Part shown: positions 2 through 58,315 of the stretch, one piece after another
Layout of the letters: each line of letters begins with the position of its first letter
Position numbering within the stretch: position 1 is the first letter of the stretch
IMG/VR virus record: IMGVR_UViG_3300025133_000033
DNA length: 64,000 bases
Direction: 5' to 3' (one strand)
From: a virus
Made by a program: the position numbers and the translations under genes
The notes under the pieces: generated by a model
The model's database searches: none
Seen by the model: only the letters and a program-made list of their open reading frames with translations
What the model was told of the DNA's origin: nothing

Positions 2-1324
2 GCTAAAGCCGCCAAAGCTAAAGCCGCTGCCAAGGCTGCTGCTGAACTAAAAGAGGCTAGAGCTGCCAAAGCTAAAGCCGATAAAAAGGTCGCCGGAATT
101 GGTAAAGGTCGAAAAGATACAGGTGCAAAGAGAAGGGCAGTTAAAGTTGCTGAAGCCGCTGCCAAGGCCGTTAAAGCTGCTGAGGCCGCTTATATCAAAG
201 GGATTCAAGAGTATGAAAAGCTTGCAGAAGAGGCAGAATCGAAAGCGAAAGAAGCCGCTCTAGAGGCCGCAAAAAAAATCAAGCCTGCTGGTCCTGATCC
301 AGCACAAGTTGATAGAGATAGAAGGGCAGCCGATCTAGAAAAACGTAGGGCGGCAGTTCTTAATAAACCTTCGGCTAAGCCTTCGACAGCAACCCCTTCT
401 AGTCCCGCTGCACTTGGAGGATTATCTCCTACTCCACAAAACCGTATTTTAAAGAAGCCGAAGTCGGACGCTGAAGTCGAGCGTGCCAGGGCTGACAAAT
501 TCAATAAAGAGAGAAGATTAGCTCTTACTCCGTTTGAGCGTTTAAAGGAAGCCAGAAGAGATAGGCATGAAAAAGTTATGCAAGGAAGAAGAGATGCTCG
601 TGCCGAGCAACAGGCAGCAGCAAGAGAGAGATTTGGCGGTCTAAGCTCTGTTAGAGGGCAGGCTGCTCAAGCTAAAGACTTCTCAGTATTTCGCAAGCAG
701 CAGCTTGAGCCTTCAAGACTAGGAGGAATCCAGCCAACCTTTGAGAATAATACGGTGGCAAGAAGAATAGTTGGTAGAGGGCTAGGAGCCAAAGGAGGCT
801 TGGATGCCACCTCTAAGAGTGTCTTAGATACTGTTAGCGGTCAGCACGCATCTAGCCAAAAAGCTTTTATCCGAAGCTTTAGAGGAGAAGAGAGAAATCG
901 TGTATTCCAACAGTTGAATACAGATAAAAATACAAACCTTAGAGAAGACTCAGAGTTTAATGCTCTAAGAGAGAGGCTTGGTCGTAAGCAAGAGACAAAG
1001 ACTGGAAACTCAGGATTTGGCACTCGTTTGCCTGACGGAGGAACAACCTCTCAGGTAGATTCTATTAAGCCTACTGTAGAGACCTTTGCGGCAGCACAAA
1101 ATACTTTTGGTCAACACGTAGGAGCATTAGCAAAAGCTGCCGAGAAACTAGAAAATATGAATGGACTAACAGTTCAGTTTGAAACAAAGGTACAGCCGAT
1201 TGAGGTACTTCTTAATGGTGCTCAGTTAATAGCCGAAGCCACTCCAACAATTCTGAAGAATGTCATGAGTCAATTGTCTGAGAAGATAAAGGAAATGGCT
1301 GGTGGTAATGACCCTACTCTTTAA
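2..1324 (+). CDS. C-terminal part of a long Ala/Lys-rich helical protein, probably tail tape-measure (5' truncated by the window)
   Basis: The frame of ORF 578..1324 stays open back to position 2 (AKAAKAKAAAKAAAELKEARAAK...). Low-complexity helical composition; lies just upstream of tail-like genes. Confidence 0.6.
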   Translation, partial: AKAAKAKAAAKAAAELKEARAAKAKADKKVAGIGKGRKDTGAKRRAVKVAEAAAKAVKAAEAAYIKGIQEYEKLAEEAESKAKEAALEAAKKIKPAGPDPAQVDRDRRAADLEKRRAAVLNKPSAKPSTATPSSPAALGGLSPTPQNRILKKPKSDAEVERARADKFNKERRLALTPFERLKEARRDRHEKVMQGRRDARAEQQAAARERFGGLSSVRGQAAQAKDFSVFRKQQLEPSRLGGIQPTFENNTVARRIVGRGLGAKGGLDATSKSVLDTVSGQHASSQKAFIRSFRGEERNRVFQQLNTDKNTNLREDSEFNALRERLGRKQETKTGNSGFGTRLPDGGTTSQVDSIKPTVETFAAAQNTFGQHVGALAKAAEKLENMNGLTVQFETKVQPIEVLLNGAQLIAEATPTILKNVMSQLSEKIKEMAGGNDPTL

Positions 1325-29395: not shown

Positions 29396-30532
29396 TTAAT
29401 ATCTCCCTAAGATCGTATACTTATTATTCAATACAGAGATTCCCTGTAGGCCCCAACCATACATTCCTGCACGCCGTTGTCGATGAGGGTTAGAATCACT
29501 ATAAAGCATGATATCCTTTTGTGTCTCTGGCCTGGTTATATAAAAAGGATATGATCCATTGGACTGATCTAGACCAAGACAAAACATTTCGCTCTTAAGA
29601 GAAATAGGAGGTAGCCCCAACTCATATGTTATAAATCTGTTAGCTTCTCCCGCATAAGAGAAGCTGTCATGGAAATGTATCTTGATACCTTTATAAAGAA
29701 GTCCTTTATTTTTGATAGCTTCTTGCCAAGCCTTTTCTCCATATTCTTCTATAAACCACGACTGAATAAGCTCGGGACTAGTATAAGCGTCGGTAAGACA
29801 CCTTCCATCCTCCCTCATCTTTTCTTTCATCTTCTCTATCAGCATGATACTCTGTCCTGATACAGTGTTATTGCGATCAAAGGCAGCAGCAATCAAAGTA
29901 TTCCAAGCGTCTGTAGATAGTTTGCTTCTAAAGGATTCAATGAAGGCTTCTATTGCTGCCCCTAATATATCCCATCGAACATCACGACAGTAGACCAAAC
30001 GCCAGTCTATTGAGCTTGCTATTTCATAGTTTGGTACGGCTACATGGTCTCCTTCTGTGAGTCTATCTGGGACATGGCCATGATTAGGTATTATATAGGC
30101 ACTGTCTATGCCTTTTGGCAACGAGAAGACACAATAGGAGTTGTGGTTTGGAGACTCTGGAACATAGTGAAGCTCATGAAAAATATCAAAGACAATATCT
30201 TCCCGTATAGAAGCATTTACGCCATCCTGAATAATAACACAGAACTCTTCCATCGCAGCTTCAGAGGTCTTCATGTCATAACTGCCTATCCTCATGACAA
30301 TATCATTAATCACTGCTTGTGGAGGCAGATTAAAGCCTTTATTCGAAGGGGCTGTCTTCCTCATAGGAGACATTACCTTCTTGAGATCTACCTTTAAGTC
30401 CTTGCCTATATCGGGATCTACATCATCTAAAGTAGTAGTTGATATGTTGACTCCAGCAGCCTCAAGATCGACAGCAAGAGGGACGCTAATACCTAAGACG
30501 CCTAACGCTTTTACAAAGTCTCTTCTTTTCAT
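29396..30532 (-). CDS. Tat-signal protein resembling a major capsid protein
   Basis: MKRRDFVK plus h-region plus LEA. The body (IPNHGHVP...EGD.V.VP.Y.I.SSID...RWDI; HRQRRAGMYGW) matches from memory the capsid proteins of related large phages. Confidence 0.6.
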   Translation of the reverse strand: MKRRDFVKALGVLGISVPLAVDLEAAGVNISTTTLDDVDPDIGKDLKVDLKKVMSPMRKTAPSNKGFNLPPQAVINDIVMRIGSYDMKTSEAAMEEFCVIIQDGVNASIREDIVFDIFHELHYVPESPNHNSYCVFSLPKGIDSAYIIPNHGHVPDRLTEGDHVAVPNYEIASSIDWRLVYCRDVRWDILGAAIEAFIESFRSKLSTDAWNTLIAAAFDRNNTVSGQSIMLIEKMKEKMREDGRCLTDAYTSPELIQSWFIEEYGEKAWQEAIKNKGLLYKGIKIHFHDSFSYAGEANRFITYELGLPPISLKSEMFCLGLDQSNGSYPFYITRPETQKDIMLYSDSNPHRQRRAGMYGWGLQGISVLNNKYTILGRY

Positions 30533-32731: not shown

Positions 32732-33162
32732 TTCTTTTTCTTTCTCTTCTTTATAGCCTGTTTCTTAGTAATAGGAGAAGGCATACTGCCGTCCTCGGTC
32801 ATTCGGGTCATACCAGTAGGCAATTCTTCCATCCCTCCGCTGCGATTTTCCCTTTTATCAAACTTATTAAAGTCCTGGCTCATTTCTTCGCATTTATCTT
32901 TGCCGTATTTTTTAGTTTGTTTGTCCGCATATTCACCAAGTGTCGCACACTCGTGGAGACCCTTGATATAATTAGTGACCATAGTATCCGAAGAGTAATC
33001 CCTATAGACCTTACTACTAGAACACTCAGGGCACTCAGCATCATTAAGCTTCTTTTCATAGTCGTTAAAGCTCCATAATTCGCTCCAGGGTTGATCGCAA
33101 TCCTCGCATCTTAAACTATACTCAGGCATTTTTTGCTCCTTTAGCAAGGATATCTGCCGCAC
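32728..33162 (-). CDS. FmdB-like zinc-ribbon protein
   Basis: MPEYSLRCEDC...CPECSS; likely start MPEY. Confidence 0.7.
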   Translation of the reverse strand: MRQISLLKEQKMPEYSLRCEDCDQPWSELWSFNDYEKKLNDAECPECSSSKVYRDYSSDTMVTNYIKGLHECATLGEYADKQTKKYGKDKCEEMSQDFNKFDKRENRSGGMEELPTGMTRMTEDGSMPSPITKKQAIKKRKKKK

Positions 33163-33772
33163 GAGCCATTACATCCCATCGAGCATCCTTGCAATACATT
33201 AGCTGGAAATCAATAGCAGAGCTAACAGGCTTCTCTTCTTTTGGTTCTGTCCAAGACTTGGTATTCCCAACCATTGTTATTTCTTCTGTAAAGTCATCAT
33301 CAACAGGAAAGATTAGATGCCTACGGTAAGGGCCTCTGCGACCTAATTCATGAATCTCTTCCCTGTCTAAGTCTTTACATACACCAATTGAGCTTCCATG
33401 CATATGAGCTATTTCCGAAGAGTTACTTAATATTTCTTTTCGTGTTTCTTCGTCTATTTGATCGACACTCCAGTTTTTAATGTCCTCCATAGCCTCTGGA
33501 GATATATATAAATCGGAAAGATTACCTTTATCCCAGTAGTAAGAAGGATTTGCTTTCTGCTTTTTCATGACCTCTTTCATTCTTTTAGTGAAACCTTCTC
33601 CATAATCGAATTCCACTAGATTTTCGTCTACCCCTAATGATGCAGGCTCGACCCCCTTTGTGTGGTCTACTAGGTCTTTAGCTTGTCCCGAACGGGAAAG
33701 AGGGCTCGCTCCAACAGCAGCCGCCAAGCCTATAGCACACGTTCTAAAGAAGCTTCTTCTGTTTATATTCAT
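33122..33772 (-). CDS. Tat-signal mosaic of capsid-like and tail-tube-like segments
   Basis: NRRSFFR plus h-region plus GQA; shares two segments with 29396..30532 and one with 33975..34559. Confidence 0.6.
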   Translation of the reverse strand: MNINRRSFFRTCAIGLAAAVGASPLSRSGQAKDLVDHTKGVEPASLGVDENLVEFDYGEGFTKRMKEVMKKQKANPSYYWDKGNLSDLYISPEAMEDIKNWSVDQIDEETRKEILSNSSEIAHMHGSSIGVCKDLDREEIHELGRRGPYRRHLIFPVDDDFTEEITMVGNTKSWTEPKEEKPVSSAIDFQLMYCKDARWDVMARAADILAKGAKNA

Positions 33773-33974
33773 TTACTACATCCTCGTAAGAAATTCTTGC
33801 TCGTCCTCTTTTAGTTTTCATAACTTTTAGAAAACGCTTTCGTTGCCATTCAATAAAGTATAGCACAGATTCAGTCAATTCGTGGCCATCCAGAAAATAA
33901 TGTTCTGCCAGAATGGGGTCATCAATTAGGTTGTCTGTAAAATGACGGAGAACATCATCTATTTCAATAGCCAT
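33744..33974 (-). CDS. hypothetical protein
   Basis: 76 aa coupled ORF. Confidence 0.5.
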   Translation of the reverse strand: MAIEIDDVLRHFTDNLIDDPILAEHYFLDGHELTESVLYFIEWQRKRFLKVMKTKRGRARISYEDVVNEYKQKKLL

Positions 33975-34559
33975 TTAGATAGTAGCCTTTGCTAGTTCTT
34001 TAGGAGGGATAGGAGACCATTGTAAACAGCATAATTTTAGATCAGAGATGGTGCATCTCCTATAGGTATTCCCTCCTTCACTGTTTATTCCACCGTCTTT
34101 TATTATCATAATCAGCTCATACTTCTCACCATAAGGAGTGGCAGGATGGTCTTCCAGAAGATCATATATAGGCTTTCCGTCACGTCGAAGAATATGATAA
34201 GGTTCATCTCGATTATGGAAGGACTTTTGAGCAGGAGACTCGTCCCATCTCATATTTTGATCTCCTAGTGCCTGTAATGTCATGATCGTGACAATACCCT
34301 TGTACTCTATCTCTATCTCAACATCAATTGTACGAAAACGGTCAGGGTTTTCATATAAAGCTATTTGACCAAGCTCAAAGACTTGCTCTAGATCATAAGA
34401 GATAGTAATATTCACGCTTTTAATATTATCTGATGAGATATATTTGGGACCACGACCCTTGACTAGAGGCTCTGCTTTAGCAGCCTTCTCGCCTAAAAAA
34501 GGCAACGCCCCCAGAAAAGGAAGCGTTGCCATAGACTTAAGTAGATTTCTTCTCTTCAT
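33975..34559 (-). CDS. Tat-signal protein with a tail-tube-like segment
   Basis: MKRRNLLK plus h-region plus AKA; SVNITISYDLEQVFELGQIALYEN. Confidence 0.55.
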   Translation of the reverse strand: MKRRNLLKSMATLPFLGALPFLGEKAAKAEPLVKGRGPKYISSDNIKSVNITISYDLEQVFELGQIALYENPDRFRTIDVEIEIEYKGIVTIMTLQALGDQNMRWDESPAQKSFHNRDEPYHILRRDGKPIYDLLEDHPATPYGEKYELIMIIKDGGINSEGGNTYRRCTISDLKLCCLQWSPIPPKELAKATI

Positions 34560-45773: not shown

Positions 45774-46243
45774 TCTTTTATGTTCCTAAAATCAAAAACT
45801 TGTGAGGGGTCAACTGCCAGCTTCTTTTTACCTTTCTCTGTACCACGAAGCTCCATTAGTCGTATCGCTACCTTCTCCATAAATTGCAATCTATGAATAT
45901 CTTCCTGTGCCCATACACTGAGAGCCTGATATACAAACTCTGCTATCTCTCCAGTCTCTATTCGAAGACAAGTACGAGCCAGTAGATCAGCAGATGTTTC
46001 GGAAGCATCCTCTACCGCTGCTGAGACATATAGCTGCCCATCCTTACAGCTATACTCAATACCTATCTTGCCATCGCACTCCTCGTCTTCTCCCATACGA
46101 GCATTATGACAATCAGTACATCGTGCTGAGGTTCCAGCCCAGTAGACAGGGTCGCAGGACTTACCACAGTCGGCACAATCTACGGAGGCAGGGGGCTTGG
46201 CATTATAATCAAAGATTAGTGATACTAACTTTCGCAAAACCAT
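45770..46243 (-). CDS. zinc-finger hypothetical protein
   Basis: CADC...CTDC. Confidence 0.5.
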   Translation of the reverse strand: MVLRKLVSLIFDYNAKPPASVDCADCGKSCDPVYWAGTSARCTDCHNARMGEDEECDGKIGIEYSCKDGQLYVSAAVEDASETSADLLARTCLRIETGEIAEFVYQALSVWAQEDIHRLQFMEKVAIRLMELRGTEKGKKKLAVDPSQVFDFRNIKE

Positions 46244-47060
46244 CTTGATCCTTTCCGCTTAAAAATGTCCCAATCTTACGTGCCACCCCTAATCGAAACT
46301 CTTGAGGTACTGAGCTATCGCTATAGTCGGTTGTTATATAAGAGCCATTAGCATAGGCGTTGGCTCCTGGGGTAGGTTCTCCCAAAGGTCTCGTAATGAT
46401 TGTGCCTTTTCGCAACACCTGAACCTTACCGCCCTTCATAACATCTGAGGCAAGAGGGTAGTGAGAATTGGTTAAATCAATGTTTACTACATCGTTTAGA
46501 AGAATACCTGCAACAGGCTCGTCTCCTTGTTGTAGTCTAACGCATTCTACTGGGCACTCAGGATGACTTATCCCATCGTAGGTTACTACAGAGCCTTTCT
46601 CTGCCACCTGATCCATAAAAAAGGATGAGTCCACCTCTCGAATATCTCTCTGTGCCCTTAAGCCTTTCGCCGTACCAGTGTCCCATAGATCAAGAGTTCC
46701 CGAAAGAGGAGAAACTCCATAGTTGTGGGTCGTCATAGGAGAGGGGCTGTCAGGACTATGTATCTCATGGATACAATCATCAAGGCTTTCATAATACTCA
46801 ATTTTAAAATCTTCGCCAAGAGGAAGAAGATTTCCCGACCCACCGTTTATGACCTTATTCTCTAGCCACTTTGGCCACTCTGTTCTAACTCCGTTAACGG
46901 AAGTTGTTTCGTCTGGAAACGTAGTCTTAGTATAGGTGACTGCGGCATCCTTTTCAATCGTCGCCTGCTCTATCGCTTCTACTTTTTTTACTAAAGGTGC
47001 TGCTGCTAGAGCACCAATGCCAAGTCCTAATTTTTTAAAAAAATCTCTGCGTCCTGTCAT
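46209..47060 (-). CDS. Tat-signal protein with a capsid decoration/cement-like C-terminal domain
   Basis: GRRDFFKK plus h-region plus VEA; SFFM...GILLNDVVNIDLT...KGGKV..LRKG...GTFLSGKDQDGFAKV. Confidence 0.6.
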   Translation of the reverse strand: MTGRRDFFKKLGLGIGALAAAPLVKKVEAIEQATIEKDAAVTYTKTTFPDETTSVNGVRTEWPKWLENKVINGGSGNLLPLGEDFKIEYYESLDDCIHEIHSPDSPSPMTTHNYGVSPLSGTLDLWDTGTAKGLRAQRDIREVDSSFFMDQVAEKGSVVTYDGISHPECPVECVRLQQGDEPVAGILLNDVVNIDLTNSHYPLASDVMKGGKVQVLRKGTIITRPLGEPTPGANAYANGSYITTDYSDSSVPQEFRLGVARKIGTFLSGKDQDGFAKVSITNL

Positions 47061-52286: not shown

Positions 52287-52591
52287 TGGTGGAGCCGGGG
52301 GGGATTCGAACCCCCCGTCCCTAATTGTTTTCAATAAAGCGTCTACGTGTTTGTGTCGAGCTAAGCCCTGCACGACCAAGGGGCAGGATAGTTTAATGAC
52401 CTCTTACAGTCCAGCTTCAAAACAGGTATCTAGCTTTGGTTAACAGGGTGCTAGATAACCCCTACTGCTTACGCAGCTAAAGCAAAGTTTTCGTTTGCAA
52501 TTAAATGTTAGTCAATTTTTTAGGTAGCCCTTTGACCAACTACCACACGCAACTTTACATCCGTCCAATAGGTCGAAACCAAGTCGGCCCC
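52287..52591 (-). ncRNA. ssrA: tmRNA
   Basis: 5' GGGGCCG, 3' T-arm plus GGCTCCACCA (G3-U70); tag ORF at 52469..52498 encodes ANENFALAA*. Confidence 0.95.
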
Positions 52592-52597
52592 AAACAG

Positions 52598-52669
52598 AGA
52601 GCGAAGAGGGATTCGAACCCCCGTAGATCTGAGTTGCAGTCAGACGCCTTGCCTCTCGGCCACTCGCTC
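52598..52669 (-). tRNA. tRNA-Cys(GCA)
   Basis: Cloverleaf, loop CTGCAAC, U73. Confidence 0.88.
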
Positions 52670-52675
52670 TAAAAG

Positions 52676-52747
52676 TGCAGCTACGGAGAATCGAACTCCG
52701 ATCTCAACGTTGGCAACGTTATATACTAGCCTTTGTACGATAGCTGC
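52676..52747 (-). tRNA. tRNA-Gly(GCC)
   Basis: Cloverleaf, loop TTGCCAA. Confidence 0.85.
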
Positions 52748-53107
52748 CTATTCTTCCTCAATTGCTTCTCTAACAATTCCTACCCACATATCATCAAGTT
52801 CGTGATCGGTAAAGTCGCCAGGAAACATCTTGCGAATCTGATTCCTAACAGCCATACCCTCTCGAAAATGAACAGGGTGAGGGACTGCCCCGTTAAAGAT
52901 TACAGGATCAACTCTGCCATACTCTCTATAGTAGTCACGGAAAAGTTCGATACCTTCAGGCTTTAACCAGCCCCTAACTCTCTCAACAATATCTTGTCGT
53001 TGAGTTTTCCTGTTGTTTTTAATGACTATGATCCTTGACTTGCTTGCTCCAATGACAAACCTCTCGTCTTTGATACCAGTGTACCATTTTATGACCGTGT
53101 TCATCAT
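52748..53107 (-). CDS. hypothetical protein
   Basis: 119 aa; HPVHFREGMAVRN. Confidence 0.5.
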   Translation of the reverse strand: MMNTVIKWYTGIKDERFVIGASKSRIIVIKNNRKTQRQDIVERVRGWLKPEGIELFRDYYREYGRVDPVIFNGAVPHPVHFREGMAVRNQIRKMFPGDFTDHELDDMWVGIVREAIEEE

Positions 53108-53214
53108 GCTCTACGATCACCAACCAAAACGGAAGGGAAAGTAGGCGTCTGCGTGCATTCTTATGTTCGAATGTCTTACCGCACTTAAGTGCAACATTAA
53201 TAGTATTCATAATA

Positions 53215-53544
53215 CTACCTCCGATAGTACCGTGTTTTTCCAGCTCTAAAATCGAACGTACTATATCCCCGGTACTGAGAAAAATTAACATTAACGCCAA
53301 ATCTTACATACCTCTGTGGCGAGATGTAAGTTGGCCCGATACTCATGTATGTCCCGGTTGGATACCAAGTAACAACTGGGCGATAGGCGATCACAGGCCC
53401 ATGCCTGTGTAGCCCTGCGTGGGGATGTGCGTGCCAGTGTCCGTTGTGATGGTGCTGACCAAAGGCATCGCTTGCAAAGAAGCCAAGGGAAAAGAACATC
53501 AATTGGACAAAGAAAAAGAACAAGATTAAAAGTAGCTTCTTCAT
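53215..53544 (-). CDS. secreted His-rich small protein
   Basis: Start MKKLLLILFFFF (the ORF-track extension overlaps a tRNA); signal peptide, then HHHNGHWHAHPH. Confidence 0.55.
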   Translation of the reverse strand: MKKLLLILFFFFVQLMFFSLGFFASDAFGQHHHNGHWHAHPHAGLHRHGPVIAYRPVVTWYPTGTYMSIGPTYISPQRYVRFGVNVNFSQYRGYSTFDFRAGKTRYYRR

Positions 53545-53562
53545 TACATCACCTTTATAGAG

Positions 53563-53633
53563 TGCAAGATATCGGAATCGAACCGATGACCTTTGAGTGG
53601 AAGTCAAATGTTTTACCACTAAACTAATCTTGC
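53563..53633 (-). tRNA. tRNA-Gly(TCC)
   Basis: Loop CTTCCAC. Confidence 0.88.
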
Positions 53634-53788
53634 CAATGTTCCTTTGCGTGACAGTTGGCACATAGAACTACACATTTTTCAATTTCTTTGAAGATTTTGG
53701 AAACGCCCCCAACGTCTTGAGGTAGGCCCGTCAGCCTATGATCTGCGTGGGAATCGAACCCACCTATGTCCGTTTATCAACGTTTCAG

Positions 53789-53861
53789 TGAGAGCGGTGG
53801 GAATCGAACCCACATTATCTTGGTTAAGAGCCAAGTGCATTACCTTATCTGCCACACTCCC
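53789..53861 (-). tRNA. tRNA-Lys(CTT)
   Basis: Loop CTCTTAA. Confidence 0.88.
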
Positions 53862-53877
53862 GTTAAAGCCCGCCTCG

Positions 53878-54082
53878 GCTGGTGGTACTAACGGACCCTC
53901 ATAAAGTCCTCCCACATTCTTATTTAAACGTCGGCTACAACGTACCGAATTTCGCATCCTTCTAGAACAGATGCCGAGCCTTATCATCACTCTTAGTCAT
54001 CCTGACTTAACGAAAACTTTTCAGCGTCCGAATAAGCCATACAACCGCTCACAGCGTCCATAGACGCCCCCGCTACCACAGC
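53878..54082 (-). ncRNA. unknown structured RNA (~205 nt)
   Basis: Closing helix, 12-bp inner helix and five hairpins; no convincing ORF. Confidence 0.5.
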
Positions 54083-54144
54083 ACTTCTTCAAGTTCACCA
54101 AAAGTTAAGGTATTCATCAAATTCTCCTTATCACGTTAGTGAAG

Positions 54145-54217
54145 TAGGCAATAAGGGAGTCGAACCCCTTCTTCTAGTTCCGTAGACTAGCGTGCTATTC
54201 CGTCACACTCATCGCCC
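54145..54217 (-). tRNA. tRNA-Arg(ACG)
   Basis: Loop CTACGGA. Confidence 0.85.
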
Positions 54218-54222
54218 AAATA

Positions 54223-54540
54223 TTATTCTCTAATCTCTATGTTTTCTAGTCCAGACTCAAATATCTCATCTAGCTTTTGCATCAAGAAAAAGCCAGCCAT
54301 ATAAGACTTCATACTTTCTTTATCTTGACTTAGAATTAAGAGGACAGGCCCCTCGGCATTATCAATAGATCCTGAATCTGCGAAGATAGTAAAGACCTTG
54401 CCCGACTGATTAAATTTCTCAATAAATTCCAGCGGAACCTCGTTCGTATAAACGTCATCGTCCATACTGTATTCATCGGAACCTACCTCTTTCCAAATGC
54501 GAAAGCGGTATAGTTGAGTAGTTTCTAGTGTATCTGTCAT
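54223..54540 (-). CDS. hypothetical protein
   Basis: 105 aa ORF. Confidence 0.5.
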   Translation of the reverse strand: MTDTLETTQLYRFRIWKEVGSDEYSMDDDVYTNEVPLEFIEKFNQSGKVFTIFADSGSIDNAEGPVLLILSQDKESMKSYMAGFFLMQKLDEIFESGLENIEIRE

Positions 54541-54546
54541 AATAAA

Positions 54547-54735
54547 TTATCCTGTTGCTGAAATTGCTTGTCTTTTTCCAGATAGATACTGAGTGTATTC
54601 TATACTCCCTAGCTCGTAAGGAGGTTCTTCTTCGTTAGGAATATTAGGCTCGTCGTCTCGTCTCCCATATAAGTATACCACGTAACCACGGTCAAAAGGC
54701 TCTAAAGCTTCAAAATATTCCTGTGAGATAGTCAT
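54547..54735 (-). CDS. hypothetical protein
   Basis: 62 aa, ATGA overlap. Confidence 0.45.
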   Translation of the reverse strand: MTISQEYFEALEPFDRGYVVYLYGRRDDEPNIPNEEEPPYELGSIEYTQYLSGKRQAISATG

Positions 54736-55067
54736 CTTTTCAAGCCCATTTGAGAACGTTCTAAGTCCTCCAATGCAATTTCACACAGGTTTTTAATGTC
54801 ATCTAAGTCTCCATTATCAACTATGCATTTATCCTCATACGGGTCCAAGAGCCTACGTCTGATCTCAGTTTCGGCAGAAGAGATATGACCTAACGCATTA
54901 CTTAGTTCGGTATATCCACGAGGGTCTAAAATCCCCAACGTCAATCGACAGATGATATAGTTCAGAGCACCTCCTCTTTTTTCCTTTGGGACGTGAAGAG
55001 AATCTTCTATTAATACATCAATACTATCGTCTATTAAGTTTCTATGTTCCTGTGGGATGTAAGGCAT
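54732..55067 (-). CDS. conserved-looking phage protein (MPYI...G.LNY...E..RR...PYED)
   Basis: Motif pattern typical of phage accessory genes. Confidence 0.6.
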   Translation of the reverse strand: MPYIPQEHRNLIDDSIDVLIEDSLHVPKEKRGGALNYIICRLTLGILDPRGYTELSNALGHISSAETEIRRRLLDPYEDKCIVDNGDLDDIKNLCEIALEDLERSQMGLKR

Positions 55068-55098
55068 GTCCTGTCCTTTCGAGTTCCAAGTAAGTAAG

Positions 55099-55184
55099 CG
55101 GAGGGTGAGGGAATCGAACCCGCCAACCCGTCTTAGGGGCTACTGCTTAGCAAGCAGCTTCCGTAGCCAATTTGGTTACCCTCC
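55099..55184 (-). tRNA. tRNA-Ser(GCT)
   Basis: Loop TTGCTAA, long variable arm, G73. Confidence 0.88.
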
Positions 55185-55189
55185 ATTAG

Positions 55190-55263
55190 TAGTACGGGAG
55201 GGAGTCGAACCCTCAAACACTAGTTCCTAAAACTAGTCGCTCTGCCAGTTGGCGTACCGTACC
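55190..55263 (-). tRNA. tRNA-Leu(TAG), short variable loop
   Basis: Loop TTTAGGA. Confidence 0.82.
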
Positions 55264-55268
55264 ATGAG

Positions 55269-55342
55269 TGGTGTGGGAGGGGGTCGAACCCTCAACTACT
55301 AAGGTTTGAGCTTAGCTCCTCTACCTGTTGGGATACCACACC
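55269..55342 (-). tRNA. tRNA-Leu(CAA), short variable loop
   Basis: Loop CTCAAAC. Confidence 0.82.
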
Positions 55343-55441
55343 TAACGAATACCTAGTCCCCTAAGTATTAAGTCTATCCAACAAATTAAAATATCACAAG
55401 TCCAGATTGCCAATCCTCGCCAATCAGGGTATCTCATTTAG

Positions 55442-55516
55442 TGATGCCGGTGGGGGTCGAACCCACAAACTACAAGATTTTAAGTCTTGTTCCTCTACCA
55501 GTTGGGATACGGCACC
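55442..55516 (-). tRNA. tRNA-Leu(TAA), short variable loop
   Basis: Loop CTTAAAA. Confidence 0.82.
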
Positions 55517-55519
55517 GTG

Positions 55520-55700
55520 TTATTAGCTATACCAGTGTGCTACTACGCCAAAGACCATGCTGCATGTTCGCATGACGCCCCCGCACATGCTTTCCGCGAG
55601 AGTTGGTTGTTACCATACGCCCCCTTCTTTCTACGGAAGGGAATCACTCTTTAAATGATGGCTGCTTCTAAGCCCACATCCTAGTAGTCTTCGCTAATAA
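55520..55700 (-). ncRNA. 23S rRNA GTPase-associated-centre (H42-H44) mimic with a 96-nt insertion
   Basis: AGAC-TACTAGGATGTGGGCTTAGAAGCAGCCATCATTTAAAGAGTG[96 nt]GCGTAGTAGCACACTGGT, closed by TTATTAGC/GCTAATAA. Confidence 0.8.
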
Positions 55701-55787
55701 ATTGTCCCCTGCCCAGAACGTACACGGTCGCGACCCGTCCTAGAGGTTCACCAAGGTCACGGTCGAATTGAACGGCCTTCGGGGTAG

Positions 55788-55860
55788 TGGGCAATGAGGG
55801 ATTCGAACCCCCGACCATTTGGATGTAAGCCAAACACTCTAGCCGCTGAGTTAATCGCCC
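55788..55860 (-). tRNA. tRNA-Val(TAC)
   Basis: Loop CTTACAT. Confidence 0.9.
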
Positions 55861-55926
55861 GCTTTATGTTCTTTTCTATGACAATTAGCACATAGAACTT
55901 CACACTTTTTTATCTCTTCTAGTATT

Positions 55927-56325
55927 CTACTTCTTCTTTATTTCCCTAAGTTTTCTTAGTCCTTTTCTATATTCTTTTGGTAAGAGTAGCCTCTCTTGTA
56001 TTTCAGGATCTTCCTGGGTCCAAGACTCGCGTACTATCTTACATTTTATTCTTCTAAGTAATTTCCCATCCATCCATATACACTCGTAAAGTCCCGTCTG
56101 ATAATTGTACGTTGGAATTTGGGATCTATCTTTCAAAAGTCTCCAGGCTTTAACTTGATAACGGTTGGAATAACAGGACCAGTCATAGAAGATAGCTTGG
56201 TCAAAGACCAGTCTAGCCTCATCATCATAAAAGTGATTGACCTCTATTAGATCTACTGTCTCTTCAAGGGCAACTTCTTCGTTGGGTTGTAATGCAAAAC
56301 AAAACAATAGGAGCAGTGCCGCCAT
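55927..56325 (-). CDS. secreted/membrane hypothetical protein
   Basis: Signal-like N-terminus; VDLIEVNHFYD...FDQ.IFYDW...AWR. Confidence 0.6.
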   Translation of the reverse strand: MAALLLLFCFALQPNEEVALEETVDLIEVNHFYDDEARLVFDQAIFYDWSCYSNRYQVKAWRLLKDRSQIPTYNYQTGLYECIWMDGKLLRRIKCKIVRESWTQEDPEIQERLLLPKEYRKGLRKLREIKKK

Positions 56326-56342
56326 TGAGCCAGCCTCCTTAA

Positions 56343-56711
56343 TTAATGTAGAAGATCAATCCTACCTTTCTCTAGCACTTCTTTCAAAGGAGCTGTCTTG
56401 CCGTTAGTATGGTTCGTGACAATTCCCTTTTTGAAATCGTATGTGCGAATCCTTGGAGTGTTTTTAATCTTATCGTCGCGTCTCGCCTTCTTCTCTGCTG
56501 CCTGCTGCTCGTCTTGTTGTTCTTTTATTTTTTCCTCGATACGCTTAAGAGCTATGCGATGATTCTGCTTGCGGGTACGCTGTTCGTCTATCTCCACCTT
56601 TAGTCCTGTGGGGATATGAACAATCCTACATCCTGTCTCTACCTTATTCTTATTCTGACCACCAGGGCCTTTCCCTTTGTAGTAAGAAATCTTTAGGTCT
56701 TTCTTATTCAT
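56343..56711 (-). CDS. minimal class I release-factor domain protein (GGQ peptidyl-tRNA hydrolase, ArfB/PrfH-like)
   Basis: GPGGQNKNKVETGCRIVHIPTG, R.Q..N...AL, RIRTYDF; no codon-recognition domain. Confidence 0.85.
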   Translation of the reverse strand: MNKKDLKISYYKGKGPGGQNKNKVETGCRIVHIPTGLKVEIDEQRTRKQNHRIALKRIEEKIKEQQDEQQAAEKKARRDDKIKNTPRIRTYDFKKGIVTNHTNGKTAPLKEVLEKGRIDLLH

Positions 56712-56734
56712 CTCTTCTTCCTTTTGTTAAGTAA

Positions 56735-56807
56735 GTCGTACTCCTGTGAGTCGAACACAGTACGTCTTCCTTATCAGGGAAAACCGCATAACCGATGCAG
56801 CGAGTAC
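56735..56807 (-). tRNA. tRNA-Ile(GAT)
   Basis: Loop CTGATAA, acceptor CGTACTC/GAGTACG. Confidence 0.78.
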
Positions 56808-56978
56808 GGTGTGCAGGCTCACGAGTTCCTGCGTGCCCCTTGAACTGAACCTTGGCTGGCCAATTTAACTCTGTAAAGAGGACCAAGGTAGGGTAATGTT
56901 CCGACCTACATTCAAAGGCCGTATTGGTTGCGGACGACTACCCCCATGAAGAGTAGCCACTGATCAGGTTATCCGCAG

Positions 56979-57050
56979 TGGACAGTACGGGACTCGAACC
57001 CGTAAAACCAGCTTGCAAGGCTAGGATGATCCCAATTTCATCAACCGCCC
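56979..57050 (-). tRNA. tRNA-Ala(TGC)
   Basis: Loop CTTGCAA, G3-U70. Confidence 0.85.
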
Positions 57051-57061
57051 ATGATTGACAG

Positions 57062-57134
57062 TGGGGCCGGTGGGAATCGAGCCCACATTGCCTTGATTAA
57101 AAGTCAAGTACATTACCTTATCTGTCACAGCCCC
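57062..57134 (-). tRNA. tRNA-Lys(TTT)
   Basis: Loop CTTTTAA. Confidence 0.88.
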
Positions 57135-57327
57135 GTAATAAATGCCTGAATCCTACCGCTTAGGTCTGGCATTCCATCGTTTGCAGCCTCGTCTCTGAGT
57201 TCGACGAGCAAGTCCTTTAGTTCAGATAGCTCGTTGCGTCCTAGCTGAGCTAGATGACAATTCTGCGGATCATCACCATTAAAACCACCTCTTATAATTG
57301 CTTCAAGTACCCAGATAGCATGTTCCA

Positions 57328-57726
57328 TTAATAAACCTCGTGATGACATTCATCGTCTTCTTTATTATACACTTTACAGTAGTATTCTTCGTCGATTATT
57401 TGATGCTCAGACCATGCCCCGTCTTCACAAATCTCATAACCGCACTTGGCACAGTTAATTCTTATGTAGTCGAGCGGATTAGAACCAGAAATATCTGTTG
57501 TCCCCATCAGCCCTACTAGCCATTCTATCTTCTTTTGATCATCAGATAAAACTTCTAGGTCGTCCCAATCAAGCTCGCCACGGATCTCGGGGTGCTTGCC
57601 TAAAGCCTCTCCAAAATAAACTATTTCTCCTACGGCCCGCTCTACATCCTCTTCTTCGGCAACAAACAACCCATGTATATCACCGTGTCTTCCGCAGTCC
57701 CAATGAAACTTGTACAGTTTCTTCAT
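57328..57726 (-). CDS. conserved-looking phage protein (F.WDCGR.G...GLFVA...YFGE.LGKH)
   Basis: 132 aa with a C-terminal Cys motif. Confidence 0.6.
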   Translation of the reverse strand: MKKLYKFHWDCGRHGDIHGLFVAEEEDVERAVGEIVYFGEALGKHPEIRGELDWDDLEVLSDDQKKIEWLVGLMGTTDISGSNPLDYIRINCAKCGYEICEDGAWSEHQIIDEEYYCKVYNKEDDECHHEVY

Positions 57727-57760
57727 GCTTAAGATCCTTTCATAATAATGCCCTTTAAAG

Positions 57761-57845
57761 CGGAAGGTGAGGGACTCGAACCCATCAACCCGTCTTAGGG
57801 GCGGCTGTTTTCAAAACAGTCTGCTTTCCAATTCGCATACCTTCC
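57761..57845 (-). tRNA. tRNA-Ser(TGA)
   Basis: Loop TTTGAAA, long variable arm, G73. Confidence 0.88.
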
Positions 57846-58177
57846 ATTTTTAAAGGTAGAACTTAACAACAATCACAACCATCGTAGCAAGGACAGCAAG
57901 GACTACTGAAGAATATATAGCCCAGTTTGCCGTAGCTATCTGATGATCTATCTTAGCCATACGCTCCTTAATCAATCTCTCTTGTTCCAGTATTTCTTTT
58001 TGCCAATCAGTCATTACCGACCCTCTCTATAAGTGTTAGTGCCACTACAACTCTTGCAAAGAAAAAACGTTCTAAACTCTGAAGTAGGTGAAACATCCAT
58101 CATATTAAAGGAACGACAGTCGTTACAGACTGGAAAAAACTTATTCAGTATCCAGTGAATCATATTCTCTCCTTGTA

Positions 58178-58235
58178 TGGTGGACTGATCGGGGAATCGA
58201 ACCCCGCAGCAACTAGTATAGATCCAACCCAGCCC
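58178..58235 (-). ncRNA. 58-nt tRNA-Ala-like mini-RNA with encoded CCA
   Basis: Acceptor GGGCTGG/TCAGTCC-ACCA, T-arm CGGGG-TTCGATT-CCCCG, no D or anticodon arm. Confidence 0.6.
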
Positions 58236-58240
58236 ATAAG

Positions 58241-58315
58241 AGGTTCCGATGGGACTCGAACCCACATATTCTTGATTACAAATCAAGACCGATTGCCATT
58301 TCCGGTCACGGAACC
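58241..58315 (-). tRNA. tRNA-Thr(TGT)
   Basis: Loop TTTGTAA. Confidence 0.88.

What the first reader, a model, noticed from the sequence alone, without database searches (positions are those of the whole stretch)
33122..33772. Patchwork protein: permuted capsid-like blocks with a tail-tube-like block between them
KRMKEVMKK...GNLSDLYISPEAMEDIKNW matches KMKEKMRED..CLTDAYTSPELIQSW of the 29396 ORF. VSSAIDFQLMYCKDARWDVMARA matches IASSIDWRLVYCRDVRWDILGAA, but the two blocks occur in reversed order. Between them, DLDREEIHELGRRGPY resembles YDLEQVFELGQIALY of the 33975 ORF. A string of short shuffled segments is unlikely to fold as a capsid and looks more like a multi-epitope decoy.
Basis: partly seen in the sequence, partly recalled or inferred. 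Interest (0 to 1): 0.82.

Follow-up and report, generated by a model that had tools for sequence, protein, structure and literature searches.

The report
Export-tagged capsid and tail-tube mosaic
An uncultured marine giant phage carries a small, conserved gene that joins a bacterial Tat export tag to four shuffled signature pieces of its capsid and tail-tube protein types, a gene design I found in no paper and whose purpose is untested.

Summary
ORF 33122-33772 (-) encodes 216 aa. It has a twin-arginine (Tat) type leader followed by four pieces. These are major capsid protein (MCP) positions 158-245, tail-tube protein (TTP) 211-257, TTP 139-169 and MCP 111-138. Both parent proteins are therefore out of their normal order. 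Profile scores are 65, 39, 29 and 21 bits, against at most 7 bits in 2000 shuffles.

The MCP family has the HK97 fold and its closest solved relative is phage G gp27. The second family folds as a tandem-domain tail tube of the T5 pb6 / P74-26 type.

The gene looks real. It has a Shine-Dalgarno site and orthologues at 46-53% identity with the same piece order. dN/dS is about 0.26, and the identical protein is indexed in 26 blocks of the assembly collection.

It does not look able to form a capsid. The AlphaFold2 model has pLDDT 57 and pTM 0.21, and the mature part is very hydrophilic.

Sixty-odd other Tat-leader proteins carry the same MCP and TTP pieces in many other orders. The decoy reading is untested but compatible with the data. 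This scan has already noted the same design (Tat leader plus virion-protein fragments) in other phages. I found no paper on it.

The parts
33122..33772 (-). Whole ORF (P0001, 216 aa plus stop): Tat-leader mosaic protein
   Evidence: The identical protein is indexed in 26 blocks of the assembly collection. Two contigs read are 100% identical at DNA level.
33781..33785 (-). Shine-Dalgarno-like GAGGA, 8 nt before the ATG. The start overlaps the end of the upstream 76-aa ORF (33744-33974).
   Evidence: sequence read directly
33680..33772 (-). Tat-type leader, residues 1-31: NRRSFFR, an Ala/Gly/Leu-rich h-region, and a GQA / K putative signal-peptidase site
   Evidence: TIGR01409 gives 14.8 bits (cut-off 16.7) for P0001 and 21.5 bits for orthologue P0004. 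The leader consensus of 66 relatives is MKRRNFLKGLAALALAP. A natural variant has an AAA insertion inside the h-region.
33392..33631 (-). MCP piece 1, residues 48-127 = MCP profile 158-245 (the part after the block-2 piece in the MCP; by recall of the HK97 fold this is the A-domain; includes SPEAMEDIKNW..DQIDEETRKEI)
   Evidence: 65.1 bits, E 2.7e-22; 53% identity to P0015
33299..33391 (-). Tail-tube piece 1, core residues 128-158 (the HMM alignment starts at residue 110) = TTP profile 211-257, second tube domain (DLDREEIHELGRRGPY..FPV)
   Evidence: 39.2 bits, E 2.5e-14; hhalign probability 97
33218..33310 (-). Tail-tube piece 2, residues 155-185 = TTP profile 139-169, first tube domain (FPVDDDFTEEITMVGNTKSW). 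It is joined to piece 1 at the shared FPV motif.
   Evidence: 29.0 bits, E 3.2e-11. Orthologue P0004 has 23 more residues at this junction.
33143..33226 (-). MCP piece 2, residues 183-210 = MCP profile 111-138 (a long helix in the model, 184-210; by recall, the HK97 spine helix). It carries Cys where MCPs have Ala.
   Evidence: 20.7 bits, E 8.9e-9. Ala in 61 of 67 MCP motif matches; Cys in 4 of 6 Tat-linked matches and in P0002.
29396..30532 (-). Context: P0002, a Tat-type leader plus about 45-aa linker plus a full-length, collinear MCP paralogue
   Evidence: 34% identity over 334 aa to P0015; MCP HMM positions 7-333
33975..34559 (-). Context: P0003, a Tat-type leader plus tail-tube profile 36-83 (first-domain repeat) plus about 100 aa unassigned
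46209..47060 (-). Context: P0070, a Tat-type leader plus linker plus a copy of the ~153-aa protein encoded just upstream of the MCP gene (after a ~489-aa ORF) in related head modules
   Evidence: TIGR01409 15.8 bits; residues 137-280 match those ORFs, E about 1e-18

Best explanation
ORF 33122-33772 is a real, selected accessory gene of an uncultured marine giant phage. It encodes a twin-arginine (Tat) type leader followed by a hydrophilic, probably non-globular string of four short pieces. The pieces were copied long ago from two virion proteins, and both sets are out of their native order. Two come from the HK97-fold major capsid protein (profile positions 158-245 and 111-138; by recall of the fold, an A-domain segment and the spine helix). 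Two come from the tandem-domain tail-tube protein, one from each tube domain.

It belongs to a large, undescribed family of large-phage proteins that place the same few capsid and tube pieces behind the same leader in many orders. In this phage it sits with three other Tat-tagged copies of virion proteins.

What is shown: the anatomy, the homology, the family and purifying selection.

What is inferred: (a) the leader sends the protein to the Tat translocon and probably across the inner membrane (odds about 0.6); (b) the protein does not build capsids or tails but works by presenting conserved capsid and tube surface motifs. In that reading it acts as a mimic or competitor at the cell envelope, either against a host recogniser of virion proteins or against a superinfecting related phage (odds about 0.25-0.3).
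For: Anatomy and significance.

Identity of the parent families:
- The MCP profile hits PDB 6wkk (phage G gp27) at E 4e-12, NCBIfam capsid_Caudo_2 and phrog_2522.
- The tail-tube model has pLDDT 83.7 and matches T5, DT57C, P74-26 and SH-Ab15497 tube proteins at E 1e-10 to 1e-7.
- Both families lie in one structural module in related contigs, and in one of them (L017) the module ends in a tape-measure gene with a PF10145 hit.

A real gene:
- SD site.
- Orthologues P0004, P0071 and P0104 keep the piece order.
- dN 0.55 and dS 2.1 against P0071.
- The identical protein is in many assemblies.

The family:
- 63 Tat-leader proteins carry MCP and/or TTP pieces in many orders.
- Block 202-232 is almost identical in 43 Tat proteins and 86 MCPs. 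The one clear change is a hydrophobic position (226) that has turned polar, while the charged residues and the Trp are kept.
- Tat-linked blocks need only 5 state changes on the tree, and a single clade is not rejected (p-AU 0.37).

Export:
- Leader consensus MKRRNFLKGLAALALAP.
- TIGR01409 is above cut-off in orthologue P0004 and just below in P0001.
- The mature part has GRAVY -0.73 and no hydrophobic stretch. According to the Tat review PMC13673990, small unfolded substrates without exposed hydrophobic stretches are tolerated by Tat systems.

Not a capsid: pLDDT 57, pTM 0.21.

Mimicry lead: PMC13581612 reports that bacterial Avs sensors bind the MCP A-domain interface and the conserved tail-tube beta-hairpin. 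The gene also lies among replication genes (HNH, RecA), away from and on the opposite strand to the tail genes at the window's start.
Against: No experiment shows export, and P0001 itself scores below the TIGR01409 cut-off. The host is unknown, so its envelope type and Tat system are unknown.

A cytoplasmic sensor decoy would not be expected to carry an export signal. Conversely, capsid protein has no obvious business in the periplasm.

No partner was found. Which structural elements of the tube the two pieces represent was not resolved.

The strong conservation of block 202-232 is partly an ascertainment effect, because relatives were found through it. The low model confidence may partly reflect the shallow 13-row alignment.

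dS is saturated, so dN/dS is only approximate.
Confidence: 0.55

Rival explanations
1. Evolutionary debris. It is a decaying, rearranged remnant of a duplicated Tat-tagged capsid gene (like the neighbouring P0002) with no function of its own.
For: A full-length Tat-MCP paralogue lies 2.6 kb away and shares the Ala-to-Cys change in the spine-helix piece. P0001 has lost 23 residues relative to P0004 between two FPV/FPA motifs. The model has no confident fold.
Against: The frame is intact with an SD site. Orthologues at 46-53% identity keep the piece order. dN/dS is about 0.26. The motif residues are nearly invariant across dozens of 50%-identity clusters. The tail-tube pieces cannot derive from an MCP duplicate.
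Confidence: 0.08
2. Assembly helper. It is a membrane-tethered or soluble protein whose capsid and tube pieces cap polymerisation interfaces of the phage's own MCP and tail-tube protein, to time or place head and tail assembly.
For: The pieces are the most conserved segments of two self-polymerising proteins. The leader could act as an uncleaved anchor.
Against: It is encoded among replication genes, not in the structural module. The architecture is highly variable between related phages, which is unusual for a core assembly factor. A Tat-type leader would place the passenger on the wrong side of the membrane.
Confidence: 0.12
3. The leader is not an export signal. It is a conserved handle recognised by a phage factor (for example for loading into the prohead, like T4 capsid-targeting sequences), or it acts by occupying or jamming the host Tat translocon.
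For: The leader is unusually uniform across relatives. Exposed hydrophobic passengers are known to arrest Tat transport (PMC13673990).
Against: The leader matches the canonical S/T-R-R-x-F-L-K motif plus a weakly hydrophobic h-region. The passenger is hydrophilic, which favours transport rather than jamming. Jamming would not explain selection on the passenger motifs.
Confidence: 0.1

Closest known systems
HK97-fold major capsid protein of Bacillus phage G (gp27; PDB 6WKK; NCBIfam NF042927; phrog_2522)
   Same: Two pieces of P0001 are homologous to this MCP type. These are profile positions 158-245 and 111-138; by recall of the fold, an A-domain segment and the spine helix.
   Different: Only about 110 of about 335 positions are present, and in reversed order. 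The N-terminal part before profile 111 and the C-terminal part after 245 are missing (by recall: N-arm, E-loop, most of the P-domain). It carries a Tat-type leader, lies outside the structural module, and has no confident fold.
Tandem-domain tail-tube proteins (T5 pb6, PDB 5NGJ/9INY; P74-26 tube, 8ED0; SH-Ab15497, 8XAN)
   Same: The parent family of the middle pieces has this fold. P0001 holds one piece from each tube domain.
   Different: About 75 of about 350 positions are kept, in swapped order and fused at a shared FPV motif. It cannot form a tube domain.
Twin-arginine (Tat) signal peptides of bacterial periplasmic proteins (TIGR01409 / PF10518)
   Same: An RR-x-F-[FL]-[KR] motif, a short Ala/Gly/Leu h-region and a small-x-small site.
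   Different: It is phage-encoded and fused to virion-protein fragments rather than a cofactor enzyme. P0001 scores 14.8 bits against a cut-off of 16.7. Export is untested.
Phage-encoded exported proteins used in phage-phage or lysis control (T4 Imm, Sp, RI; HK97 gp15; T5 Llp). This comparison is from my own knowledge.
   Same: They are small accessory proteins sent to the envelope by an N-terminal signal, and are encoded outside the structural genes.
   Different: None of those is built from virion-protein fragments, and none uses a Tat leader as far as I know. No exclusion phenotype is known here.
Short capsid segments or virion proteins as immune triggers (Gol peptide of T4 gp23 with Lit, from my own knowledge; Avs7/8/10 on the MCP A-domain and Avs16 on the tail-tube hairpin, PMC13581612)
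   Same: The same classes of virion protein (MCP and tube), and in the MCP case roughly the same domain, are what defences recognise.
   Different: There is no evidence that P0001 meets such a sensor. Those sensors are cytoplasmic, while P0001 carries an export leader.

Membership tests
HK97-fold major capsid protein | Significant sequence homology to an established MCP family | tested here: met
   Two pieces at 65.1 and 20.7 bits against the MCP profile. That profile hits 6wkk at E 4e-12.
HK97-fold major capsid protein | Complete, collinear fold (N-arm, E-loop, P-domain with spine helix, A-domain) | tested here: not met
   Only profile positions 158-245 and 111-138 are present, in reversed order. 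AlphaFold2 gives pTM 0.21.
HK97-fold major capsid protein | Encoded in the head module next to portal, protease or scaffold genes | tested here: not met
   It lies between an HNH endonuclease and RecA-type genes. In related contigs the true MCP sits in the head module.
Tail-tube protein (tandem tube domains) | At least one complete tube domain | tested here: not met
   Only profile positions 211-257 and 139-169 of 351 are present.
Tat (twin-arginine) substrate | Consensus S/T-R-R-x-F-L-K followed by a weakly hydrophobic h-region | tested here: met
   N-R-R-S-F-F-R followed by CAIGLAAAVGASPL. The family consensus is MKRRNFLKGLAALALAP.
Tat (twin-arginine) substrate | Score above the curated cut-off of TIGR01409 | tested here: inconclusive
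   P0001 scores 14.8 against 16.7 and is below. Orthologue P0004 scores 21.5 and is above. P0070 scores 15.8 and P0002 13.8.
Tat (twin-arginine) substrate | Tat-dependent translocation and leader cleavage | not testable with these tools
   This needs export assays in tat+ and tat- cells. The only indirect support is that the hydrophilic passenger is compatible with transport.
Tat-leader virion-fragment proteins of large phages (undescribed; noted by this scan) | Tat-type leader directly followed by fragment(s) homologous to virion proteins of the same phage type, encoded outside the structural module | tested here: met
   63 relatives have the same design. Three further Tat-tagged virion-protein copies are in the window.

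The most novel reading that the evidence does not exclude
Large phages keep a 'shadow' set of their own virion proteins. Conserved capsid, tail-tube and head-module motifs, whole or as shuffled strings, are fitted with Tat leaders and sent to the cell envelope. There they would act as polyvalent molecular mimics that blunt host recognition of the core virion proteome or exclude rival related phages. P0001 would be the first case in which one polypeptide combines motifs of two different virion proteins.
Probability: 0.25. Interest if true: 0.9.

Novelty: categorically new. Interest (0 to 1): 0.8.

Why it matters
If the reading holds, phages reuse the most conserved surfaces of their own capsid and tail tube as exported, shuffled motif strings. 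That would be a new class of accessory protein and a new use of the Tat pathway by viruses.

It would open a testable question: what in the cell envelope (host or rival phage) reads capsid and tube motifs? It may also reveal a counter-measure to defences that sense core virion proteins.

The family is also a natural example of module shuffling with sharp piece boundaries and junctions at micro-homologies (ELG, FPV). That is of interest for protein evolution and for annotation, because such ORFs can be mistaken for broken capsid genes.

Tried and rejected
- GenBank phages: no DNA or protein match for the region, P0001 or P0002. Only phage G gp27 matched, for the MCP type.
- IMG/VR scan with P0001: no relative.
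- Pfam and PHROGs on P0001, P0003 and ten tail-tube family members: nothing meaningful.
- PDB profile search of the tail-tube family by sequence: nothing. The fold search was needed.
- Direct BLASTP of P0001 against P0003: not significant. hhalign of P0003 against the MCP profile: only the leader aligns.
- Reading the middle block as a collinear continuation of the MCP was rejected, because the tail-tube profile fits it far better.
- No whole genome is held for this window. Two exact-pattern scans of metagenome contigs found nothing.
- I tried to reach the phage's own MCP and TTP by walking contigs. L014 ends inside a giant ORF. P0134/L017 turned out to be a different, related phage. The pieces therefore could not be compared with this phage's own MCP and TTP.
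- P0218 is not on record. The close variant P0219 differs by only two codons plus an AAA insertion, too few for a selection test.
- RNA runs: no RNA holder was listed.
- Complex prediction of P0002 with P0001: no verdict.
- Promoter and terminator scan: not above shuffles.
- ESM Atlas feature search: only weak leads at 0.80.
- Cys enrichment as a mark of export: Tat mosaics have far more Cys than MCPs, but not more than tail-tube proteins, so it is not decisive.
- I did not run a fold search of the low-confidence P0001 model, as it would be meaningless.

Full report
**The gene and its setting**

The window is a stretch of a large uncultured phage. Genes are dense on the minus strand, there is a tmRNA plus 15 tRNA genes at 52-58 kb, and a RecA-type gene lies next to the finding. 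Nothing in GenBank phages matches the region.

ORF 33122-33772 (-) gives a 216-aa protein, P0001. A GAGGA lies 8 nt before the ATG, and the start overlaps the end of the upstream 76-aa ORF. The identical protein is indexed in 26 blocks of the assembly collection, including marine JGI and ENA samples. Two contigs that I read are 100% identical to the window at DNA level.

**Check of the observation**

Both capsid-like matches to the 29396 ORF (P0002) are real, and they are in reversed order. P0001 183-207 matches P0002 171-195 at E 3e-7. P0001 61-144 matches P0002 231-306 at E 5e-4.

P0002 is a full-length, collinear member of a ~335-aa metagenomic family, with 34% identity over 334 aa to P0015. 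P0001's first block is closer to typical members of that family (53% identity, E 6e-21) than to P0002.

A 21-sequence profile of the family hits the phage G major capsid protein gp27 (PDB 6wkk, E 4e-12). Single members hit NCBIfam capsid_Caudo_2 and phrog_2522. The family is therefore an HK97-fold MCP.

**The middle block**

The direct comparison with the 33975 ORF (P0003) is not significant. An exhaustive search with P0001 brought up a second family of 340-440 aa proteins with no Pfam or PHROG match. These match P0001 around residues 116-166 and, further upstream in themselves, residues 155-174.

The consensus of this family shows an internal repeat (..ELGQL..YEN.. and ..ELGRK.PY.RY..). Its AlphaFold2 model is confident (pLDDT 83.7, pTM 0.83). 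Foldseek matches the tandem-domain tail-tube and related tail-tip proteins of T5, DT57C, P74-26 and SH-Ab15497 at E 1e-10 to 1e-7.

In related contigs this gene lies about 4 kb downstream of the MCP gene. In one of them (L017) a tape-measure gene with a PF10145 hit follows it. It is therefore the tail-tube protein (TTP).

P0001 124-181 aligns to TTP 226-281 (probability 97). P0003 43-91 aligns to TTP 36-84 (probability 96.6).

**Final map of P0001**

| Residues | Element | Bits | E-value |
|---|---|---|---|
| 1-31 | Tat-type leader | n/a | n/a |
| 48-127 | MCP[158-245] | 65.1 | 2.7e-22 |
| 110-158 | TTP[211-257] | 39.2 | 2.5e-14 |
| 155-185 | TTP[139-169] | 29.0 | 3.2e-11 |
| 183-210 | MCP[111-138] | 20.7 | 8.9e-9 |

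In 2000 shuffles of the mature sequence the best scores were 7.0 and 3.3 bits.

Both parents are out of order. The junctions fall on short motifs shared by the joined parts. One is ..DL..ELG between the MCP and tube pieces. The other is FPV between the two tube pieces. At the FPV junction orthologue P0004 still has 23 more residues.

**Is it a gene under selection?**

Orthologues P0004 (46% identity), P0071 and P0104 keep the leader and the piece order. Against P0071, dN is 0.55 and dS is 2.1. dS is saturated, so the ratio of about 0.26 is approximate.

A close variant differs by one synonymous change, one non-synonymous change and an AAA insertion inside the h-region.

**Does it fold?**

AlphaFold2 with 13 relatives gives pLDDT 57 and pTM 0.21, with only the local helices of the parent pieces. 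The mature part has GRAVY -0.73, pI 4.9 and no hydrophobic stretch. It is much more hydrophilic than the MCP (-0.26) or the TTP (-0.16). The alignment is shallow, so this is a lead and not proof of disorder. A capsid-like fold is excluded by content alone.

**The leader**

The N-terminus reads NRRSFFR, then an Ala/Gly/Leu stretch, then GQA / K. TIGR01409 scores are 14.8 bits for P0001 (cut-off 16.7), 21.5 for P0004, 15.8 for P0070 and 13.8 for P0002.

Across 66 relatives the consensus is MKRRNFLKGLAALALAP, a textbook Tat motif. According to a recent Tat review, small unfolded substrates without exposed hydrophobic stretches are tolerated by Tat systems (PMC13673990). Export itself is not shown.

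**The family**

Of the 166 hits to P0001, 63 are short proteins with this leader. They carry MCP and/or TTP pieces in many combinations and orders. Examples are MCP C-terminus + MCP 198-240 + TTP 218-281 (P0072), TTP N-terminus + MCP 201-236 + TTP 232-264 (P0075), and spine helix before the A-domain piece (P0069, P0073).

The same piece boundaries recur. MCP positions 202-232 are almost identical in 43 Tat proteins and 86 MCPs, and the flanks diverge at once. Position 226 is hydrophobic in MCPs but polar in the Tat proteins, while the charged residues and the Trp are kept. That pattern would fit a kept surface with a relaxed core. Part of the conservation is ascertainment.

On a tree of this block the Tat/MCP label changes only 5 times, and a single Tat clade is not rejected (p-AU 0.37). 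The Tat-linked copies therefore look like an old paralogous lineage that shuffles within itself, not repeated fresh captures. With about 40 columns the power is low.

The spine-helix piece carries Cys where MCPs have Ala, in P0001, P0002, P0004, P0069 and P0127.

**Neighbours in the window**

Three more genes have the same leader.
- P0002 is a whole MCP paralogue.
- P0003 holds the first-domain tube repeat.
- P0070's C-terminal domain matches the ~153-aa protein encoded just upstream of the MCP gene, after a ~489-aa ORF, in related head modules (E about 1e-18).

A related contig (L013) has three such ORFs side by side. Two of them together cover most of the MCP profile.

**What it does**

Nothing here tests function. 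The gene lies among replication and recombination genes, not among the structural genes. Its architecture turns over fast between relatives, and it keeps motifs rather than a fold. These points speak against a core assembly role and for a conflict-type accessory function.

[quoted passage not shown] The parents of P0001's pieces are therefore known targets of host recognition. The export leader, however, points to the envelope, where no reader of capsid motifs is known.

I therefore commit to an envelope-directed, non-assembling motif string that acts by mimicry or competition, against a host recogniser or a superinfecting relative. I put the odds of that function at about one in four. I rate the anatomy and family membership as near certain and export at about 0.6. 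Rivals are debris, assembly capping, or a leader that is a handle or a translocon blocker.

**Novelty**

Four full-text searches found no paper on Tat leaders joined to capsid or tail fragments. The Tat review mentions no phage substrates of this kind.

This scan has noted the same design in other phages, where T4-type and phage-G-type capsid and portal fragments sit behind Tat leaders. I did not re-test those notes. What is new here is one polypeptide that mixes pieces of two different virion proteins, each permuted.

Noticed in passing
window 29396-30532 (-): A full-length, collinear paralogue of the major capsid protein carries a Tat-type leader and a ~45-aa linker. It has 5 Cys against about 0-1 in typical MCPs of the family.
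   Followed up: partly
window 33975-34559 (-): The Tat-type leader has a duplicated LPFLG in its h-region. It is followed by the first-domain repeat of the tail-tube protein (profile 36-83). About 100 C-terminal residues match nothing I searched.
   Followed up: partly
window 46209-47060 (-): A Tat-type leader and ~110-aa linker are followed by a copy of the ~153-aa protein that related phages encode just upstream of the MCP gene (after a ~489-aa ORF), E about 1e-18. The gene lies among longer ORFs that I did not annotate.
   Followed up: partly
window 52287-58315 (-): Phage-borne tmRNA (tag ANENFALAA) followed by 15 tRNA genes.
   Followed up: no
window 2-1324 (+) and L014 2-8245: The window opens inside a giant ORF of at least 2747 aa. 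In a related phage (L017) the gene at the equivalent place after the tail-tube gene has a tape-measure hit (PF10145).
   Followed up: partly
L013 1223-1876 and 2029-2733: In a related phage, two Tat-leader ORFs 150 bp apart (a 58-aa ORF lies between them) together cover most of the MCP profile: 310-335 plus 10-127 in one, and 167-268 plus 111-153 in the other. A third Tat ORF with tube pieces lies beside them.
   Followed up: partly
protein P0123 (396 aa, metagenomic): A full-length tail-tube homologue without a Tat leader has MCP pieces (profile 196-226 and 117-142) inserted in it and a Cys-rich C-terminal extension. MCP/tube mosaics therefore also exist outside the Tat family.
   Followed up: no
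L016 5-664 (variant P0219): A natural variant of the gene has a 3-residue AAA insertion inside the leader's h-region, plus only one synonymous and one non-synonymous change elsewhere.
   Followed up: yes
L003 3364-4458: A related large-phage contig encodes a 364-aa protein with a Tat-type leader that matches neither the MCP nor the tube profile. The same contig holds P0069, a Tat protein with MCP pieces in native order, among glycosyltransferase genes.
   Followed up: no
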